Positions 4,185 to 51,572 of a stretch of DNA of 64,000 bases are shown piece after piece; the stretch's first letter is position 1, and every line of letters starts with the position of its first letter. The DNA lies in assembly GCA_000004985.1 (NCBI GenBank), contig GG738857.1. One strand, given 5' to 3'. The position numbers and the translations under genes were made by a program. The notes under the pieces are model-generated. The model did no database searches and was not told where the DNA came from. It saw only the letters and a program-made list of their open reading frames with translations. Origin of the DNA: Naegleria gruberi (taxonomy: Eukaryota).

Positions 4185-4257
4185 TGCTGACGGACGGGAT
4201 CGAACCGGCGACCAATGGCTTATTAGACCAACGCTCTACCGACTGAGCTACGCCAGC
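4185..4257 (-). tRNA. tRNA-Ile (anticodon AAU)
   Basis: The reverse complement folds as a 73-nt cloverleaf: acceptor GCTGGCG/CGTCAGC, D arm GCTC-AGTCGGTA-GAGC, anticodon stem-loop TTGGT-CTAATAA-GCCAT, T arm GCCGG-TTCGATC-CCGTC, discriminator A. It is near-identical in arm sequence to eukaryotic tRNA-Ile(AAU). It lies 29 bp past the MFS stop codon. Confidence 0.85.
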
Positions 4258-23440: not shown

Positions 23441-24250
23441 ATGTTCATAAAAAAAGGCTTTGTTAATCATAAGAGAATTAGCAAGTTTGGTGGCCAAACC
23501 AGAACATTGAACGGAAATATTAAAACAATAATAGGAATGTTAGGAAATAATAATCCATCATCAATTAATTATTTGGAAAATAATTTATCAGCAACAAGAC
23601 AATTTTCGAAAAGTAATAATTTAAAATCTACTACTTCTCCTTCCAGTGATGCTGCTGATGATTCATATTTCAATATTTCAGTTCAAATTAATCAGGATGG
23701 TATTCTGTTTAAGGAATATCCATTTGCACTGAGTAGTGTAGGAAGAGGAAATTCAATTGTTCCATTTCAAGCAATTCGTGAATTTATTCTTGATGATTCA
23801 AATCATGCAGAGATTAGAACACATAATAATGAAATTCTCTTTATGAGATGTGATTTTAATATTGAGGATTTGAAAAAAACAAACATTCCAATATATACAA
23901 GGCAGTCTATTGATCTGTGGTCAGATATTACTGAACCGTTCTTGGATTCGAGCGTTCCTCAGGTTGAAGAGAAAGTGGAACAATTAATTTCTAGATATTC
24001 AATTTCTAGAGAGGAATGTGAAAAATTATATTCAATTATTTCAGAGCCAGTGTTTGCCTACAATTTTGAAACCATGCTATGGGAATATGTTTCTTTGGAT
24101 TTGGTTGATGTATTGTCATCTTTGGATAAAAATTGTCCTCTCTCTCAAAAACCATTATCAGAAGAGAAATTTAAAGAGTTTTACAATTATGCCAATAATT
24201 TTACACTGAAATACGAAAATAGAAATGATTTTACAAAGTATACGGAATAA
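23441..24250 (+). CDS. hypothetical protein
   Basis: 269-aa ORF with ATG at 23441 (aaaATGttc). No family recognised. Its last ~33 codons plus 3' flank are duplicated at 25421..25582. Confidence 0.4.
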   Translation: MFIKKGFVNHKRISKFGGQTRTLNGNIKTIIGMLGNNNPSSINYLENNLSATRQFSKSNNLKSTTSPSSDAADDSYFNISVQINQDGILFKEYPFALSSVGRGNSIVPFQAIREFILDDSNHAEIRTHNNEILFMRCDFNIEDLKKTNIPIYTRQSIDLWSDITEPFLDSSVPQVEEKVEQLISRYSISREECEKLYSIISEPVFAYNFETMLWEYVSLDLVDVLSSLDKNCPLSQKPLSEEKFKEFYNYANNFTLKYENRNDFTKYTE

Positions 24251-24305
24251 TTTTGGATCAATGATAAAGGAATTTATGACCGAATTAGATGCTTATTTGT
24301 TTTTA
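24142..24305 (+). repeat. direct repeat copy 1 (~160 bp; second copy at 25421..25582)
   Basis: ctctcaaaaaccattatcagaagagaaatttaaagagttttacaattatgccaataatttta..ggaataattttggat.aatgataaaggaatttatga is present twice in direct orientation, 1.28 kb apart. Copy 2 carries small deletions. Confidence 0.6.
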
Positions 24306-24417: not shown

Positions 24418-25364
24418 TATGACAATCTTCCCTCAGGAATGTCATAACACCACCCAGTTCAGTTTTGAACCCAGTAAAGAACAGTGTAAAAAAATGGAAC
24501 AACATAATTCATCAATTATTTTGTCTGATGATATTGTTAATGAAATTCTATCTTTCTTTGATGATTTTAAATTTCTAATCATGAATTGTTCATTAATTTC
24601 TAAACAGTGGTATAATATTATATTATCAACATGTTATCATCTTTCGTGTAAATGTAATAACAAACTTGAATTGAATGGAGAATTTTTACAAAATATTTCA
24701 TCATTAGAAATTGTTAAAGTTACATTGTTTGGTGATTTAAAATTAATTTGTCAATTGAAACAATTAATAAGACTCAATATTTCTAATAATAACATTGATA
24801 GTGAAGACGCTAAATATCAGTGGTCAATTAAAACAATTAACTAGTCTTGATATTTCTAGCAATGCTATTGGTAATGAAGGTGCCCAATATATAAGTGAAT
24901 TGAAACAATTAACATATCTTAATATTAATTGTGCATGGATTGATATTGAAGGAGTTAAATATATTAGTAGTCAATTAAAACAATTAAACCATCTTGATAT
25001 CAGTTATAATAATATTGGTATTGAAGGAGCTAAATATATTAGTGAATTGAAACAATTAACAAATCTTAATATTTCTGATAATAGTATTGGTATTGATGGT
25101 GCTCAATACATTGGAGAATTGAAACAATTAACATATCTTAATATTGGTTCTAATAATATTAGTGATGAGGGTGTTAAATATTTTAAAGAATTAAAACAAT
25201 TAACTCATCTTAATATTTCTGACAATAATATTAGTGATGAGGGAGTAAAACATTTTAAGGAATTAAAACAATTGACACATCTTGATATTCGAAAAAATAA
25301 TATTGGTGATGAAGGCATTGAATATTTGTTTCAATTAAAACAATTGACCAAACTTGAAATTTAA
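24418..25364 (+). CDS. F-box-like + 24-aa-periodicity LRR protein, apparent 2-bp frameshift (possible pseudogene or sequence error)
   Basis: F-box-like N-terminus (ILSDDIVNEILSFFDDFKFLIMNCSLISKQWYNIIL). Tandem units LKQLTxLNISxNNIxxEGxKYIxE continue from ORF 24401..24844 into ORF 24795..25364 in another frame. At ~24818 the sequence reads gctaaatatcagtgg where the repeat consensus predicts gctaaatatATcagtgg. Confidence 0.45.
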
Positions 25365-25420
25365 TAAAATCTATTTTGAGAGTTTTGTAAGATCATTTTC
25401 ATTCTTGCAACACCAATGTT

Positions 25421-25582
25421 CTCTCAAAAACCATTATCAGAAGAGAAATTTAAAGAGTTTTACAATTATGCCAATAATTTTACCCTGAAATATGAAATGA
25501 TTTTATAAAGTATACGGAATAATTTTGGATTAATGATAAAGGAATTTATGAAATCTAATTAGATACTTATTTGTTTTATTAG
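25421..25582 (+). repeat. direct repeat copy 2 (degenerate copy of 24142..24305)
   Basis: See copy 1. It starts 57 bp after the LRR gene stop and abuts the 3' end of the minus-strand EF-hand/fascin-like gene. Confidence 0.6.
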
Positions 25583-43363: not shown

Positions 43364-44940
43364 TTACTTTTTTAAGAGAAATGCTGGTCTGGAAGGTTGT
43401 GAAAATCTTTCAAGACGATCCTTTAGTGAAGGTCTGGCATAATCTTGACATCTCTTCTTGAAGTCTTCCAATATCTTATTGGAAATCTCAATAACTTGAT
43501 TTCTATCACTCTCCTCAGTAATATCGTTTAAAATGCTGACTTGATTTTGTTGGAAATTCTCCACGAGTTGAGCAACAGCTTGATCGAAATCATCCATAGT
43601 TTTAAATTGCTTTGGACATGGATTTGATCTTCTGTGAATATCATAATAACTATTTTCCAAATTATAGTACAAACAAAGGACATTCTTATATGTTACAGAT
43701 ACTTGTTGATTATTAATTGGTCCATTCAATAATTCTTTTCCAATTGCAATTATCAATTCCTTCAAGGTTAATTGTTCAATCCAATTATGAGGAATTCCTT
43801 CAACTCCATAATAACATCCCATCAATTGACCAGCAATAGCTGCAACTGTATCAGAATCATCTCCCAAACGAGTTACCTTTTTAATTCCTTCACCAAACGA
43901 AGAAGTGTGGTAAAAATTCCACAATGCACTCTCTAAAGCTTTTGCAGAATATCCCGAGTTGGAAATTTCATCTTCATTCTTTGATTTAAAGTTGGTAATG
44001 ACATCAAGAACTTCAGCTCTCAATGGATACATTTCCCAATAATTAGAAGGCAATCCTTTTGGTACAAATGGAGTGGACGATAACAATTCTTCCTTTGATG
44101 CATTTTGTAAACAGCCAATCAACAAAGCAGCATAATATCTATTAGTATCAATTGCAATTGGTGAAGGATGTGTAGTCAAGGATGAAACACCACTCTCAGT
44201 AATTACTCTGTGAAGTAATCTTTCTTCAACAAATAGTTCAGATAATTCAATATTTGAAAATCTCTTCTTCCAATTCAAATATATACCATAAAAGTACAAT
44301 GGAATAGTTGCCAATCTCATTAAGGCACCATTTCCAGAAGCATTATCAGTCCATTCAGAAGCACTGCAAAAAGCAGCCTTATTCTTTTCATTTTTCAACA
44401 AGTGAACTATAGTTGTCTTTCCAATATCAAAACAATGTCCACTAGCTGACAAATGTCCATTATTATACCAATTCAAGAATTTGTCTTGCATATCTCTGCC
44501 ATCAATTGCACTATGAGGTATCATATCATTCACCCACATTGCATTATCCTTAGCATTATCCCACGGATAATTAACAATCAATTCATTTCCATTCGAAAGT
44601 ATTTCCTTGAATGTTCCCAATAAACTTTCGCCCTGAATAAGAGACATGGTTGTATCATCAGTAAACATGCCTTTCATTAATCTGAATTTTCCTTCTCCCA
44701 CCAAATCATCCCTTTTTTATTACAATTAAATATATTTAATATTTGATGATTTAAATATTATTTGATTGGAAGAATTTGATCGTCATGAATGAACAAATTT
44801 AATGTTCAGAATATTACAAAGGTACACACATACTTTAAATCGGAATCTTTAATTCCATGTCTAGGAATAAATTCAAATGTTGTTCCGTAAGCATCACCAG
44901 TGGCCATGCCTAATAAACATCCAAGAAATTTTGATTCCAT
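43364..44940 (-). CDS. ADP-ribosylglycohydrolase family protein, 2 exons
   Basis: Exon 1 is 44940..44834 (MESKFLGCLLGMATGDAYGTTFEFIPRHGIKDSDLK) with a GTATGT donor. A 122-nt intron. Exon 2 is 44711..43364 (DDLVGEG..FTDDTTMSL..GNGALMR..GDDSDTVAAIAGQLMGCYYG). A ~150-aa extension beyond the ARH fold follows. The tracked ORF start at 44704 is TTG. Confidence 0.7.
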
Positions 44941-44992: not shown

Positions 44993-45052
44993 ATGAATAA
45001 TGAACTTGTTGTGGACCAATCATGAACATGGAACTGAGAAATTTTGTTGAAC
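44993..45052 (+). repeat. short dispersed motif (copy 1; copy 2 at 51510..51572)
   Basis: ttatgaataa..tgaacttgttg..atcatgaacatggaactgagaaattt has a 26-nt identical core in both copies. Each copy lies just 5' of a minus-strand gene start. Confidence 0.5.
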
Positions 45053-45126
45053 TACAGTTTTTGATTCAATCAGTAGGGGGAAGACGTCCCTTATAATAAT
45101 ATTTAATTTTTCTTTGGTTCATATTA

Positions 45127-45976
45127 GACTTCCGGAAAAAGTTTTGCTAAAAGTCGACTTTTTTAAGGTACTTTCACGCTAATTTGCAAAAAGGCGCCTA
45201 AAAGGTGCCTAAAAGGTGCCTTTTTTACCTAAAAACTACTTGAAACACATCCAAAGTTTGTTCAAGAAAATCTTGAGCAACTTTCAAACTGTTTTCAAAC
45301 AATTCCTCAAGAATGATTAATTACTTCTCAACCAAATTCTCAAAACGTTCAAGTATTTGCTGAAAAAACCCCAAGGGCCTTCAAACTTCTGAACACTCTC
45401 TTTCTTAACTATATCCTTTTCCAAAAAATCCACCAATTCCTTAAGAGATCCAAGGTTTTTGAATGTCACCATCTCGGGTCACTGTAGTTTTGATGGATTT
45501 TTTTACATCAATCACGAAATCTTTCGAAAGCTCTGGTCTTTTGGGCTCCTCAACTTTTCTTGGCATGATGATTGTTTTCTTTTTGATAAGGTTCAGGTTT
45601 TTTCTCTTTCTGGGTGGAGTGATGTTCAAATCAGATCTCTTCCTCTTCTGGATTTTTTCTTGTTTCACACTTTTTTCTTGTTCCTGTTTCATGCTTAATT
45701 CAGAATATGGTGTTTCATTAAGATTTTCTTCCACTTCCTCAACATCTTCCGTTCCATCAACAATAGAATCAGCAAGATTAGGGAACCTTTCAACTTCAGC
45801 AAATGCAGTAAAGAAAAGGTTGACATCAGGAAAAAGAAAGCTTCAATAAATGTGCAGGAAAGGTTTAAACATTTCTTGAATTATGCTCAAACAAATTTCA
45901 AAAATTGCTCAAACATTTTTCAAACCACTTTTTTAAAAAGGCGCCTTTTTATTTCTTTTTGACTTTTCCGGAAGTC
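45127..45976. mobile_element. 850-bp non-autonomous DNA-transposon-like element with terminal inverted repeats and TA target-site duplication
   Basis: The left end (TA)GACTTCCGGAAAAAGT.. at 45125 and the right end ..ACTTTTCCGGAAGTC(TA) at 45977 are reverse complements, giving a 15-16-nt terminal inverted repeat. Further subterminal similarity follows (aaaaaggcgcc; gtttgagcaa..). The TIRs are flanked by TA on both sides, as for Tc1/mariner-like or Stowaway-like MITEs. The internal 97-aa basic ORF (45441..45734, minus) is too short for a transposase. Confidence 0.5.
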
Positions 45977-46074
45977 TATTGAAACTCTTGCTTTGTTTAG
46001 GTTTCCCATAATTTTATATTTTTATTTTTATTGGAAATAAATTTTTTAATATGGAAAATCAGGTCAAGTGTTTA

Positions 46075-47376
46075 TTAAGGATCACCACTTGTAACGGCAC
46101 ATCCAAAAAATTCATGTTTTCCAATCAATTGCTTTGGAATTCCCCATTCCCATAAATATTGATCTCCAGATCTTAATTCTTGCTCTCCAGAATAAATGAC
46201 AAGTAAATTTGATTGAGATGAATAGTCAACTGGATCATCATTTACATCCTCATCTATTATTTCTATATCAGAATCAAAATCCATAGAACTAAACAAGCTA
46301 AAAAAGGTAAACTTGTCATCGAATGGTGTTGAAAATTCTTCAATTTTCAAAGTATTTGGAACTTTTCCTCTTTCAGTCATTCTAGGTTGGTGAGGAACTG
46401 AATGGAATTTCATTTTGGCAGCATTGCAATAGGTACGATTTCCTTCTTGTCTCTCCAATCCACCCATTTCTTTAATTTGATTTTCTGTTATGTAAAGAAC
46501 TGGTTGTGAACTAGATCTCTTTGGTGCACAATAGGACCCATTACCTCCTCCATTAGGATCACAAAAGAAATAGAGCATTCCATTATCTTTAGGAAGAAGT
46601 GATCCAGTTCTATCATAATAAGACAAGTGTTTGATGTTGATTTGACAACCAAACATCCATTTCTTATCAAAAAGTGTTGGCCATTGATAGTTTTTTGGTA
46701 AATCAGGCCATCCACCAATTTTTGATTCTCCAACTGCAATTAAATCGTCTCCATTTCCAATAGAGTATCCAGAAGTTACTGATTCTAATGGAACTTTCCA
46801 ATAAAGTGATTCAGGTGTTACAACTTCCTTTTCTTCTTCGGTTTCTTCTTCTTCTTCTTCATACTCCTCATCTATATCATTTTTAATTATCTTAAACTTT
46901 GGATGTAACTTTTCACAATACCCTTGAGTAATTGACTCGACAGAAAAGGTCAAGTTTTGATAATCCTTAGCATTTTCACTAAATGCCTTTAAAATATTGA
47001 CATGTCCTTTTTGTCTGCATTCGTGAACTGTCGAATACTTTCCATAGGCAATTTTACAGATGAAATATTCTTTCCAGAATGCGTTTTCACTTGGAAAAGT
47101 TTCCAATAAACATTCTGGTACATCAATTGGCAGAAAGTTCAATCTATTCTTGACAACATCCTTCCAATTTACTTGATTATCAATCATAGACTTCCATCCC
47201 TTGCATACACGTCTCATCTTTATCAATTCACATCCCTCATTAAATATGAACAATTCACCAACCAATACTTCTGGTGGAATATCTTGGAGGAGTTGTCTTG
47301 TTGATTCTTTCATCTTTTTGTTTGGATTTTCAGTACTACCAACCAGTGTGCTGTTATTGACAGATCGTTTGGACAT
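46075..47376 (-). CDS. F-box-like + DUF1963(YwqG)-like domain protein
   Basis: 433 codons from ATG 47376 in an aaaaaaaATG context; the tracked start at 47415 is TTG. F-box-like LLQDIPPEVLVGELFIFNEGCELIKMRRVCKGWKSMIDNQVNW. C-terminal ..IGGWPDLPKNYQWPT..YFFCDPNGGG resembles the YwqG/DUF1963 fold. Confidence 0.55.
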   Translation of the reverse strand: MSKRSVNNSTLVGSTENPNKKMKESTRQLLQDIPPEVLVGELFIFNEGCELIKMRRVCKGWKSMIDNQVNWKDVVKNRLNFLPIDVPECLLETFPSENAFWKEYFICKIAYGKYSTVHECRQKGHVNILKAFSENAKDYQNLTFSVESITQGYCEKLHPKFKIIKNDIDEEYEEEEEETEEEKEVVTPESLYWKVPLESVTSGYSIGNGDDLIAVGESKIGGWPDLPKNYQWPTLFDKKWMFGCQINIKHLSYYDRTGSLLPKDNGMLYFFCDPNGGGNGSYCAPKRSSSQPVLYITENQIKEMGGLERQEGNRTYCNAAKMKFHSVPHQPRMTERGKVPNTLKIEEFSTPFDDKFTFFSLFSSMDFDSDIEIIDEDVNDDPVDYSSQSNLLVIYSGEQELRSGDQYLWEWGIPKQLIGKHEFFGCAVTSGDP

Positions 47377-48182
47377 TTTTTTTGTGGTGTTATCAGTTTT
47401 GGCGCAGAAAATCAAGTTACAACCGGATTAATTAAGTACTCACTTTTTACCGAGTCGATTTTCCATGAATTTCTTGAAAATTGAAAAATGTAACCACACA
47501 AATTTTCACTTTCTTTTCACTTTCTTGCTTTTCTTTTCTCAGTGTTTTATTCTCCATTTCTAATTAGAAGATAAGTATCTTGGAGCTTTGTCCTAATTCT
47601 AATTTTACTTGATTTATGTCTCTATGTAACTTTTCAACATCTGATTTGAGTTGTTTCTCATTATTTTTTTTTCAGTTAATTCAGATTTCAATTTGGTAAT
47701 TAAATCTTGTTTTTCGTTTGATTTCATTATTGCTTTGTTTGATTGTTGACTCCATAATAAGAATGAAAATAAATGAAATTCCTCTCTTTTCTTGCTTTTT
47801 CCAGTTGTTTGGATTCATTATGGCAGATTGACTATTTTGCAATTTTAACAAGCCTGCATATCAAGCACTTTGATTTTAACTATACAACCCGTACAAGCAT
47901 CTGTCTTGGCCATCTTCTGGATATTGAGAGAGTACACCAATCACAGAGTGCAAGGGAAGATCTTCAGCACCTGCGGTGCTGTCAACACTTCTTCTCTAAT
48001 TGTTTAATAAAATGGAAAGAACTGAATAGTTGGACAACTAAGTGAAAGACTGTAATTTGTTGCATTAAGTTTGGACAAACTTGCGTGAAATTTCCACAAA
48101 CTATGACCAGTTACATTCTTCTTGTCATACAAGTATTGAAAATAATTTTTCAACCAACCTCTAAAACATGAAGATTGAAAGC

Positions 48183-48193: not shown

Positions 48194-48267
48194 TACCGAC
48201 AATGGGGCTCGAACCCACGACCCCAGGATTAGAAGTCCTGTGCTCTATCCAACTGAGCTATGACGGC
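48194..48267 (-). tRNA. tRNA-Arg (anticodon UCU)
   Basis: The reverse complement GCCGTCA-TA-GCTC-AGTTGGATA-GAGC-A-CAGGA-CTTCTAA-TCCTG-GGGTC-GTGGG-TTCGAGC-CCCAT-TGTCGGT-A is a 74-nt cloverleaf with anticodon TCT. There is one U-U mismatch at acceptor pair 5-68. Confidence 0.8.
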
Positions 48268-48504: not shown

Positions 48505-51290
48505 TTAGTTTATCAATGATTGTTTCTTTTGGAGAAATGCAAGCTCAGAAATATTCAATAAATAACTCCTGTAAATAAATTTCCCATAATATTGCTCACA
48601 ACCACTCAGACCAAGGATGCCAAAATTTGGGGGGAACTTGTATTTACCATCCTTAAGATTTGCACTAAGAGGTTTGTTTGTAATAATTATAGCAAGAGAA
48701 GTATTTGGGGTTCCACCTATCAGTTCAAGTTTTGGTTCATTGAAATGATTTTGATAAATTTTCTTAACAGCAGTCATTGTTAAACTGTTTGAATCTGATG
48801 TGAAACTCTTGTCTTGCCATAAGATAGTCCAATTGTTATTATCAATATTGCAATCAGCAAATCTATGAAAAAATGAAGAGGTAAAATTATTTTGAACCAA
48901 AGTGTTCTGAGGAATCTCATATTTTGATCTAGTTACATCTGTTAAAATAGTAACAACTTTGTTTGGAAATGTGTTTAAATTAATAATCCTATACCCCATT
49001 TCTTTTTGAAACATAATTCCCTTAAATCTATCCTTGATATGCATTTGAGATACTCCTAAAATAATAAAGCAATAATTTTTTACAATTTCAAAATGTGCAT
49101 TGAAGATTTTAAAATCTCTGGAACAGGTGGTTTTTTTTTTAAATGCTGCTTTTTCAAGTGATTTAAATAATTTTTCAAAGGACGTCTTAATCTTAGGATC
49201 ATCAAATATGATAATATTTAAACAACTCAAGATCATTGGAAGAGACATTGTTATCAATCCATTAGCAATTCTTATATATCCATTATCTTCTAATTGTCTT
49301 AATTTCCTTGTATCAATTGTATCTATAATTTCAGAATTAACAGGTGTTTCTGTTAAAGTGTGGGCCAAAATTAATTTAGCTATTTCATTTTCAAAAACAA
49401 AGTTCACACCATAACTAGAAAAATTGTTCTTGGCAATGTTGTAGGCATTTTGTATTCTATCTTCAACGTTCAATGTTAATTTTGTGTCCTTCAAATTATC
49501 CAAAAACCATTCAATCATTCTAGGATGCTTGTTAATAAAAGTAAGAGCTTTCCATAACGGTGCTGCATATTTTAAAGAAGGAACATTTCTGCAAACAATT
49601 TCTAATTCGTCATCATCAGAAAATTGGTAAGGAGTAAAATAATTACTATGGAAACCTGATTCAAAAACTCTCCTTTCAAAGAAAGCCATATCTAATCCAG
49701 CAAATAATGGAAAAAGTTTAACAGAAGATGGTTTTTGGTTGTTGAGTATTACAAAATTACATATCATAGTGATAATTTCTGAAAAATTCATGTGTGGAAA
49801 CTCCTTAACTTTGGTATATTCATCAATAGCCAAATAAACAGCAACAGGTGAATCTTTTGGTTTGTTGTTAACTTCCTTCCAGTGCTGTACTATTGTCAAT
49901 ATTAACTCCTCAAAGGTAGGATTGATCTTGGCTAATTCAGATGCAATAGATGTAATGGTGTTTGTATCAAAACTTGGGAAATTTAAATATGAAAACAATA
50001 TTCTATATAAAAATCCCATTTTTAAATCATCACCAGCTCCTAAACTCATACCATTACCAAAGGAAATTCTTATTTCCAATGAATTATCTTTGTAATTTTT
50101 TTCTTGGGTGGTTAATTTGAAAATTTCTTGTAATGTCCTTGATTTTCCTAAAATATAATAAAATAATAAAATGATTATGCTAAAGTATAACACTACATAC
50201 CTGTTCCAGAAGCGTAGGCAAGGTAAGGAATAAAAATATTTTGTTTGTCTGTTTCGGTTTCTAATTTATGAAACGTTTCAGAAATTCCCTTGACAAGTTC
50301 ATCATTATATTTGAATGGCATGTCGATAATTGATCGAACTAATCTATAAGCATTTAGCCTGGCTCCATGTTTTGCAATAAAACTTGCCAATAAACTACGA
50401 TTTGAAAAATCAACATTGTCACAAGTAATTATGTACTGTTGTTTCCATCTTTCAATCACTTTCTCATTGTTGTCAGATATTTGAATGCCACTTAGTTTTA
50501 GGGATAACAAGTAGGAACTTTCGTTTTTAGTTAAATATTCTAAACTTTCGCTAATTGCTTGACTGATTTTCTCAGTTTGCCACAAATGAAAGAGTCTTGT
50601 TGTGAGTAGTTGGTATACCCAATTAACAACGGCCTCTAAAGTGGTTTGGGAAATGCTTTTGTAATCGTTGTTGTTTCTTACTTGTGTAATAGCATAATGC
50701 TTGTCCTTATCTTGGATATAAGTAACAATATTACTAAGAGCAATACCATCAAACCCAACATCATACAATTGCTTTACCTTTTCAACAATCAAACCAGCTC
50801 CACCTTTTCTTTCATCAGTGCACAACAAGGAGCAAACTTGTTCTTTTGTCCATTGTTTAAATTTTGTAGTATCCAATATTTGTTTGTTTTCAGTAGTAAC
50901 CAACGTTACTGGTTCAGAATAAATATTCTCGGAAAGAAAAGTGGTAGTAGAATAATTTTTGCAAGAATTTGTGACGGCAAAAACATGCTTCGTTCTATAA
51001 TGATTGTTTTTGTTTTTTGTTGGATGAATTTGATTTTGCATCTTTAATCTGGTTGAGGTTGAATAATTCTTTGTATTACTAGTATCATTATGCAAATAGA
51101 TGGTGCAACTAATACCGACAGAGGTTTGCCTCAACTTTTGTTGATTAATTGCGGTTTTGGGCAATAGTAAAAGCTTTCGAGGGAGACAGGAGGTGGATAT
51201 TTTTTTTTTGACTCGGAAAAAATTCAACAACTTAGGATGATTATTGTTGATTTTCAGAGTGGTTTCTCTTGGTGAGTACTTTTCCATCAT
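48505..51290 (-). CDS. SAM-domain + P-loop NTPase-like large protein, 2 exons
   Basis: Exon 1 is 51290..50201 with a GTATGT donor. A 53-nt intron ends ttttAG at 50148. Exon 2 is 50147..48505. The splice creates ..PYLAYASGTG|KSRTLQE.., a Walker-A-like GxGKS spanning the junction. A SAM-like segment is WTKEQVCSLLCTDERKGGAGLIVEKVKQLYDVGFDGIALSNI. The two tracked ORFs are contiguous in different frames. Confidence 0.5.
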
Positions 51291-51509: not shown

Positions 51510-51572
51510 TGATGAACTTGTTGAGAAGAAAAGCTACTTCTCGATCATGAACATGGAACTGAGAAATTTATT
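51510..51572 (+). repeat. short dispersed motif (copy 2 of 44993..45052)
   Basis: See copy 1. Confidence 0.5.

What the first reader, a model, noticed from the sequence alone, without database searches (positions are those of the whole stretch)
45125..45978. 850-bp TIR element flanked by TA duplications (Tc1/mariner- or Stowaway-like non-autonomous transposon)
Terminal inverted repeats GACTTCCGGAAAA(A)GT at 45127 and 45976 (reverse complement) with extended subterminal similarity. Each is bordered by TA. There is no transposase-sized ORF, only a 97-aa basic ORF. The element sits in the intergenic space beside the dispersed 26-nt motif. It is a candidate MITE-like element of a DDT/Tc1-type family and would be mobilisable in trans.
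Basis: seen in the sequence. Interest (0 to 1): 0.55.

Follow-up and report, generated by a model that had tools for sequence, protein, structure and literature searches.

The report
Small non-coding DNA transposon in Naegleria
An 850-base stretch between two Naegleria gruberi genes is a real mobile DNA element with no transposase gene: a nearly identical copy with the same ends sits next to a different gene in a related strain. It is an ordinary kind of element, and its family cannot yet be named.

Summary
A perfect 13-nt inverted repeat, GACTTCCGGAAAA, lies at 45127-45139 and 45964-45976, and each arm is bordered by TA. There is no transposase-sized ORF. By itself the repeat is not above chance in this AT-rich window.

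A second copy settles the question. Logan contig ERR1078381_1357955 (L002) comes from a sample holding a strain about 99.7% identical to the window. It carries the same 854 bp, differing by 1 substitution and one 2-nt indel. It starts exactly at TAGACTTCC and ends at GGAAGTCTA, then runs into unrelated DNA, the 3' end of an eIF2D gene.

This is therefore a dispersed, recently moved TIR element in Naegleria gruberi. It has subterminal AAAGGYGCC repeats, three of them at 11-bp spacing. Its 97-aa ORF has no homologue, is no longer than chance allows, and is probably not a gene.

Assignment to Tc1/mariner rests only on the TA flanks. No empty site and no autonomous partner could be reached, because the host genome is not searchable with these tools. 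The Dictyostelium "DDT" label does not apply.

Verdict: a new member of a known kind. Interest is modest, because Naegleria genomes are poor in transposons and this element looks young.

The parts
45125..45126 (.). TA bordering the left end. It is either a candidate target-site duplication or the terminal dinucleotide of the element.
   Evidence: Sequence. The same TA borders both ends of the L002 copy.
45127..45139 (+). Left terminal inverted repeat GACTTCCGGAAAA. With one gap it extends to 45142.
   Evidence: (pair I9). The copy boundary in L002 falls here.
45149..45162 (.). Subterminal palindrome AAAAGTCGACTTTT.
   Evidence: Sequence. Self-match (element positions 25-38 against 45162-45149).
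45189..45221 (+). Three tandem 11-bp units AAAAGGYGCCT. These are subterminal repeats and candidate transposase-binding sites.
   Evidence: TRF gives period 11, 3.0 copies, 95% matches. Five of the six AAAGGYGCC matches in the window lie in the element, against 0.36 expected for the whole window.
45441..45734 (-). 97-aa basic ORF with a GTG start (83 aa from the first ATG). Probably not a gene.
   Evidence: No Pfam family. The only match in two very large protein libraries is the copy in L002. The 133-codon open frame is equalled or exceeded in 95 of 1000 shuffles. The AF2 model is one helix with pTM 0.22.
45887..45925 (+). Degenerate 11-bp-period repeat (TCAAACATTTT, 3.5 copies) near the right end.
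   Evidence: TRF, 71% matches, score 43. Weak.
45934..45949 (.). Palindrome AAAAAGGCGCCTTTTT. It carries the AAAGGYGCC motif on both strands.
   Evidence: (pair I14).
45964..45976 (-). Right terminal inverted repeat (GACTTCCGGAAAA on the minus strand).
   Evidence: Contig L002 begins exactly at the TA next to this end.
45977..45978 (.). TA bordering the right end.
   Evidence: Sequence.
45127..45976 (.). The whole element: 850 bp, or 854 bp with both TAs.
   Evidence: It is 99.65% identical (1 mismatch, 1 gap) to L002:1-856. Identity is lost within 3 nt outside the TA.

Best explanation
Window 45127-45976 is a non-autonomous cut-and-paste DNA transposon of Naegleria gruberi. It is about 850 bp long, has 13-bp terminal inverted repeats GACTTCCGGAAAA, has subterminal AAAGGYGCC repeats, and encodes no transposase.

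The likely mechanism is inferred, not shown. A transposase encoded elsewhere in the genome binds the TIRs, probably together with the 11-bp-spaced subterminal repeats. It excises the element and inserts it at a TA dinucleotide, which is duplicated. This is the behaviour of the IS630/Tc1/mariner group.

The element moved recently. Two copies at different loci differ by one substitution and one 2-nt indel, no more than the two strains differ in unique DNA.

Shown: the ends, the TA borders, the second locus, the near-identity of the copies, and the lack of coding capacity. Inferred: duplication of TA, the superfamily, and mobilisation in trans.
For: Host identity: window ORFs are N. gruberi proteins EFC46727.1, EFC46835.1 and EFC46836.1.

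Second copy:
- L002:1-856 is 99.65% identical to window 45125-45978.
- The contig starts at TAGACTTCC.
- After GGAAGTCTA it continues into DNA absent from the window. That DNA encodes an eIF2D C-terminus (WH_eIF2D and SUI1 domains) whose stop codon is 32 bp from the element.
- The same sample yields L001 and L073, which are 99.69% and 99.79% identical to unique window DNA. The host of L002 is therefore most simply a sister strain.

Target-site checks: TA is present at all four observed termini. Longer duplications are excluded. The 3-nt flanks are TTA and TAT, there is no TTAA, and the 8-nt flanks differ.

Subterminal repeats: the AAAGGYGCC motif is enriched in the element, 5 matches against 0.36 expected for the whole window, with 11-bp periodicity.

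Coding capacity.
Against: - No empty site was obtained. TA could be part of the element rather than a duplication.
- Only two loci are known, and none of the family's other members could be reached.
- No transposase carrying these TIRs was found.
- The TIR does not begin with the CAG/CAGT seen in many Tc1/pogo elements (my own knowledge).
- L002 is a de Bruijn-graph contig from a run labelled 'metagenome'. Its eIF2D flank found no close N. gruberi protein at E<=1e-20 and has a somewhat higher GC3 (0.34, against 0.24-0.28 for window genes). That the flank belongs to N. gruberi is likely but not proven.
Confidence: 0.8

Rival explanations
1. It is a TIR transposon of another superfamily, or an undescribed one. 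In that case TA is the terminal dinucleotide of the element, or a 2-bp duplication of an ISL2EU/PIF-related kind, rather than a Tc1/mariner-type TA duplication.
For: No empty site and no transposase were obtained. The TIR sequence is unlike the Tc1, mariner, pogo or Stowaway consensus termini that I know. The families reported from Naegleria in the papers I could read are Kolobok (PMC9587614) and MuDRF (PMC3164196), not Tc1/mariner.
Against: The flanks are incompatible with TTAA (Kolobok, piggyBac), with a 3-bp TWA (PIF/Harbinger), and with 8-9-bp duplications (hAT, Mutator). A strict TA at four of four termini is the hallmark of the IS630/Tc1/mariner group (established knowledge).
Confidence: 0.15
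2. It is a chance inverted repeat in ordinary intergenic DNA, not an element.
For: A 15-nt perfect inverted repeat within 3 kb is expected about once per random 64 kb of this composition. The extended end similarity is not significant. There is no other copy in the window.
Against: A second, nearly identical copy is bounded exactly by the same inverted repeats and has a different flank.
Confidence: 0.02
3. It is a small mobile or duplicated gene cassette whose 97-aa lysine-rich product is functional, for example a nuclear DNA-binding protein.
For: The ORF is identical in both copies. It is basic and has KRKR/RKRK runs resembling nuclear localisation signals.
Against: - It has no homologue among 5.8 billion clustered proteins or 1.84 billion representatives, apart from its own copy.
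- It matches no Pfam family.
- Its open frame is no longer than chance for this composition (95 of 1000 shuffles).
- It starts with GTG.
- No protein recorded for the reference genome matches it.
- The model has no fold (pTM 0.22).
- The identity of the two copies reflects their youth, not selection.
Confidence: 0.03

Closest known systems
Non-autonomous Tc1/mariner-type elements (TA-flanked MITEs such as plant Stowaway or human MADE1)
   Same: Short perfect TIRs, TA at both borders, no transposase, insertion in gene-proximal AT-rich DNA, and nearly identical dispersed copies.
   Different: At 850 bp it is at or above the usual MITE size. The copy number is unknown, with only 2 loci seen. The TIR GACTTCCGGAAAA resembles none of the consensus termini I know. 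No parent element is known, and the internal sequence has no detectable transposase remnant.
Dictyostelium DDT elements
   Same: Tc1-like TA-flanked DNA transposons of an AT-rich amoeboid protist (my own knowledge).
   Different: The host is Naegleria gruberi (Heterolobosea), not Dictyostelium. No sequence relationship was tested or found.
Kolobok and MuDRF transposons reported in Naegleria
   Same: Same host genus. Both are TIR cut-and-paste elements (PMC9587614, PMC3164196).
   Different: Kolobok makes TTAA duplications and MuDRF makes 9-bp duplications. Neither fits these flanks.

Membership tests
IS630/Tc1/mariner group, non-autonomous member | Terminal inverted repeats that delimit the mobile unit | tested here: met
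   13-nt perfect TIR. The boundary of the second copy coincides with it.
IS630/Tc1/mariner group, non-autonomous member | Duplication of a TA target dinucleotide | tested here: inconclusive
   TA is present at all four observed termini. No empty site could be recovered, so duplication is not shown.
IS630/Tc1/mariner group, non-autonomous member | An autonomous relative with the same TIRs that encodes a DD(E/D) transposase | not testable with these tools
   No transposase among the window ORFs. TIR scans of metagenome, viral and prokaryote collections gave only chance matches. The N. gruberi genome outside the window cannot be searched here.
MITE (operational class) | Small size, no coding capacity, many homogeneous copies | tested here: inconclusive
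   850 bp is borderline. Lack of coding capacity is supported. Two near-identical loci are known, but the genome-wide copy number is unknown.
Stowaway (plant Tc1/mariner MITEs) | Conserved terminus CTCCCTCCGT... (my own knowledge) | tested here: not met
   The terminus reads GACTTCCGGAAAA.
PIF/Harbinger (Tourist-like) | 3-bp TWA target duplication | tested here: not met
   The 3-nt flanks are TTA on the left and TAT on the right.
piggyBac / Kolobok | TTAA target duplication | tested here: not met
   The flanks read ...ATATTA|GAC and GTC|TATTGA. There is no TTAA.
hAT / Mutator | 8-bp or 9-10-bp target duplication | tested here: not met
   The 8-nt flanks TCATATTA and TATTGAAA differ.
Dictyostelium DDT | Dictyostelid host and DDT-type sequence | tested here: not met
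   The host is Naegleria gruberi.

The most novel reading that the evidence does not exclude
The element belongs to an undescribed heterolobosean DNA-transposon lineage that is still active in N. gruberi. Its insertions differ between closely related strains, and its transposase has yet to be found. It may fall outside the named Tc1/mariner/pogo families.
Probability: 0.25. Interest if true: 0.45.

Novelty: new member of a known kind. Interest (0 to 1): 0.3.

Why it matters
Naegleria genomes are reported as poor in transposons. One paper gives N. gruberi 5.1% repeats (PMC6125883), and a recent preprint gives 0.28% recognised TEs (10.64898/2026.06.24.734286). I found no description of TA-flanked TIR elements in the genus.

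A young family that may still be mobile would serve three purposes:
- It would give a marker of strain history.
- It would show that a working transposase exists in this genome.
- It would be a starting point for a transposon tool in an organism with few genetic tools.

Otherwise it is an ordinary small DNA transposon. Its main practical consequence is annotation: the 97-aa ORF should not be called a gene.

Tried and rejected
Other copies
- In the window: none.

Homologues of the ORF
- Word-indexed search of 5.8 billion proteins and full HMMER against 1.84 billion representatives found only the copy in L002.

Empty-site test
- The F-box gene contig of the sister strain (L073) stops 85 bp short of the element, and L001 stops 868 bp short.
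- Exact look-ups of the ARH exon ORFs, of element ORFs and of neighbouring small ORFs found nothing.
- The NCBI N. gruberi scaffold is not in the contig index.

Locating the L002 locus in the reference
- I searched with the eIF2D fragment and found nothing at E<=1e-20. The threshold I set was too strict to show distant homologues, but a near-identical reference protein would have passed it.

TIR scans of public collections
- Metagenome contigs: 0 hits for a 39-mer. An 18-mer gave 70 single hits, none with a second arm or any further similarity.
- Viral contigs: 2 chance hits.
- Prokaryote genomes: 4 chance hits.

Other checks on the element
- Rfam: nothing in the element.
- Folding of the ends as single strands: not different from shuffles.
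- AF2 model of the ORF: no fold.

Literature
- Nothing on Tc1/mariner or MITEs in Naegleria.

Gene models in the reference
- The flanking genes have consecutive accessions, EFC46835 and EFC46836. I considered this as evidence that no gene model lies between them.
- It is weak evidence, because the adjacent carrier gene is EFC46727. The numbering is therefore not strictly positional.

Full report
**What is there**

The window is AT-rich (about 32% G+C) and comes from a eukaryote. It carries long ORFs for ordinary eukaryotic proteins:
- an EF-hand mitochondrial carrier, an ADP-ribosylglycohydrolase (ARH) and an F-box/DUF1963 protein;
- kinases, LRR proteins, SHQ1 and an AP-complex medium subunit.

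Three of its proteins are Naegleria gruberi entries: EFC46727.1, EFC46835.1 and EFC46836.1, on a 573-kb scaffold. The host is therefore N. gruberi.

The finding lies in the 1.1-kb space between two minus-strand genes. On one side is the start of the ARH gene (ATG at 44940, with an apparent GT...AG intron just downstream). On the other is the stop codon of the F-box/DUF1963 gene (46075). Without the 854 bp, that spacer would be about 280 bp.

**Check of the observation**

The two arms, TAGACTTCCGGAAAA (45125-45139) and TTTTCCGGAAGTCTA (45964-45978), are 100% complementary over 15 nt (pair I9). That is a 13-nt repeat plus TA on each side. One gap extends it to GACTTCCGGAAAA(A)GT, as described.

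The inside holds no ORF longer than 128 aa. The 97-aa basic ORF is at 45441-45734, minus strand. The neighbouring 26-nt motif is real and recurs exactly at 51544-51569.

Two points in the description are weaker than stated.
- A perfect 15-nt inverted repeat within 3 kb is expected about once per random 64 kb of this composition, or 0.23 times if at least 5 G/C are required. The window has two others, both AT-only.
- The extended subterminal similarity reduces to one short motif, and 38 of 500 shuffles score as well.

**The decisive evidence: a second copy elsewhere**

I searched the element's open frame against 5.8 billion proteins. The single hit was an 83-aa product of Logan contig ERR1078381_1357955. 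That 1701-bp contig (L002) has these properties:
- It begins exactly at TAGACTTCCGGAAAAGTC.
- It runs through the whole element with 1 substitution and one 2-nt indel (99.65% identity).
- It ends the match at ...TTTTTCCGGAAGTCTA.
- It then continues into DNA that is not in the window.

That flank encodes the C-terminus of an eIF2D protein (WH_eIF2D and SUI1 domains). Its stop codon is 32 bp from the element.

The same sequencing run yields contigs L001 and L073. These are 99.69% and 99.79% identical to unique window DNA on either side of the element. The sample therefore contains a sister strain of the window's organism.

The two alignments lose identity three bases beyond the TA, which is within what AT-rich flanks give by chance. 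The unit that is shared between the two loci is thus bounded by the inverted repeats and their TA borders. That is the signature of transposition, not of a segmental duplication or a chance palindrome.

The contig's abrupt start at the TA is what a de Bruijn-graph assembler does where several flanks branch. This would fit more than one copy in that strain, but I treat it only as consistent.

**Anatomy**

- The element spans 45127-45976.
- The motif AAAGGYGCC occurs six times in the 64-kb window, against 0.36 expected by chance. Five of the six lie in the element.
- Three of those form a tandem array with an 11-bp period at 45189-45221, 63-95 bp from the left end.
- Two form the palindrome AAAAAGGCGCCTTTTT at 45934-45949, 28-43 bp from the right end.
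- A further palindrome, AAAAGTCGACTTTT, lies at 45149-45162.
- A weak 11-bp-period repeat lies at 45887-45925.

Subterminal repeats spaced by one helical turn are typical transposase-binding arrays in cut-and-paste elements (established knowledge). That role is inferred here.

**Coding capacity**

The 97-aa ORF starts with GTG. The evidence against it being a gene is:
- It matches no Pfam family.
- It has no homologue in either protein library other than its own copy.
- Its 133-codon open frame is equalled or exceeded in 95 of 1000 dinucleotide shuffles of the element.
- A single-sequence AF2 model is one helix with pTM 0.22.
- The other frames are broken by stops in both copies.

I conclude that the element is non-coding. 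No transposase domain was found in 24 window ORFs scanned against Pfam: 23 of the 35 ORFs of at least 180 aa, plus the 97-aa ORF.

**Mechanism and family**

The flanks rule out several target duplications:
- TTAA, as made by piggyBac and by Kolobok, which is reported in Naegleria (PMC9587614);
- a 3-bp TWA, as made by PIF/Harbinger;
- 8-10-bp duplications, as made by hAT and by Mutator. The MuDRF element reported in N. gruberi has 9-bp duplications (PMC3164196).

TA is present at all four observed termini. This is the hallmark of the IS630/Tc1/mariner group.

The best explanation is a non-autonomous element mobilised in trans by a Tc1/mariner-like transposase and inserted at TA. I put about 0.8 on 'non-autonomous cut-and-paste transposon'. 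Within that, I put roughly 0.6 on the Tc1/mariner group.

What is missing is an empty site, which would show that TA is duplicated rather than terminal, and the transposase itself. Neither could be reached:
- The sister-strain contigs stop short of the insertion site.
- Exact look-ups of neighbouring ORFs found nothing.
- The reference scaffold is not retrievable.
- TIR scans of metagenome, viral and prokaryote collections returned only chance matches.

**Age**

The two copies differ by 1 substitution and 1 indel in 854 bp. The two strains differ by 0.21-0.31% in unique DNA. The copies therefore separated about as recently as the strains did, or more recently. Whether either insertion is polymorphic between the strains is unknown.

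**Caveats**

- L002 is a short-read graph contig from a run labelled as a metagenome.
- Its eIF2D flank found no close N. gruberi protein at E<=1e-20.
- The flank's GC3 (0.34) is somewhat above that of the window genes (0.24-0.28).
- The simplest reading is a gene that is unannotated in the reference. Read-level confirmation of the junction is still the first thing to do.

**Comparison with what is known, and novelty**

This is a new member of a known kind. It works like a TA-flanked non-autonomous Tc1/mariner element (Stowaway or MADE1 type), but it cannot yet be filed in any named family. The Dictyostelium DDT label is inapplicable.

Naegleria genomes are reported to be TE-poor (PMC6125883; bioRxiv 10.64898/2026.06.24.734286). 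I found no description of such elements in the genus. A young family is therefore mildly interesting, but it would not surprise a specialist.

Noticed in passing
window 45001-45044 and 51512-51569: An exact 26-nt repeat, ATCATGAACATGGAACTGAGAAATTT, is preceded in both places by ATGAACTTGTTG. Each copy lies about 80-280 bp upstream of a minus-strand gene start (ARH ATG at 44940; ORF 50193-51290). No such match is expected by chance. It may be a shared promoter or regulatory box. The transposon sits 80 bp beyond it and leaves it intact.
   Followed up: partly
window 44712-44833 (minus strand): An apparent 122-nt GTATGT...AG intron in the ARH gene. Exon 1 (44940-44834, 107 nt) joins in frame with the long ORF that begins at 44704 when spliced to 44711. 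This is read from the sequence only.
   Followed up: no
L002:889-1701 (minus strand): The eIF2D C-terminal fragment beside the second copy found no protein at E<=1e-20 among 5.8 billion sequences, although N. gruberi proteins are in that collection. Either the gene is unannotated in the reference, or the flank is from another organism in the sample.
   Followed up: partly
window 24141-24279 and 25420-25551; array 24741-25361: A 72-nt-period leucine-rich-repeat array is bracketed by a 78-nt and a 65-nt segment that recur 1.27 kb apart at 97% and 92% identity. This looks like a recent local duplication within or between LRR genes.
   Followed up: no
window 4185-4257 and 48194-48267 (minus strand): tRNA-Ile(AAT) and tRNA-Arg(TCT) genes. 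The second lies in the spacer next to ORF 48505-50193, 2.2 kb from the element.
   Followed up: no
window 46075-47415 (minus strand): The gene next to the element combines an F-box with DUF1963. It has a 44%-identical N. gruberi paralogue, EFC35280.1, on a 1.4-kb contig.
   Followed up: no
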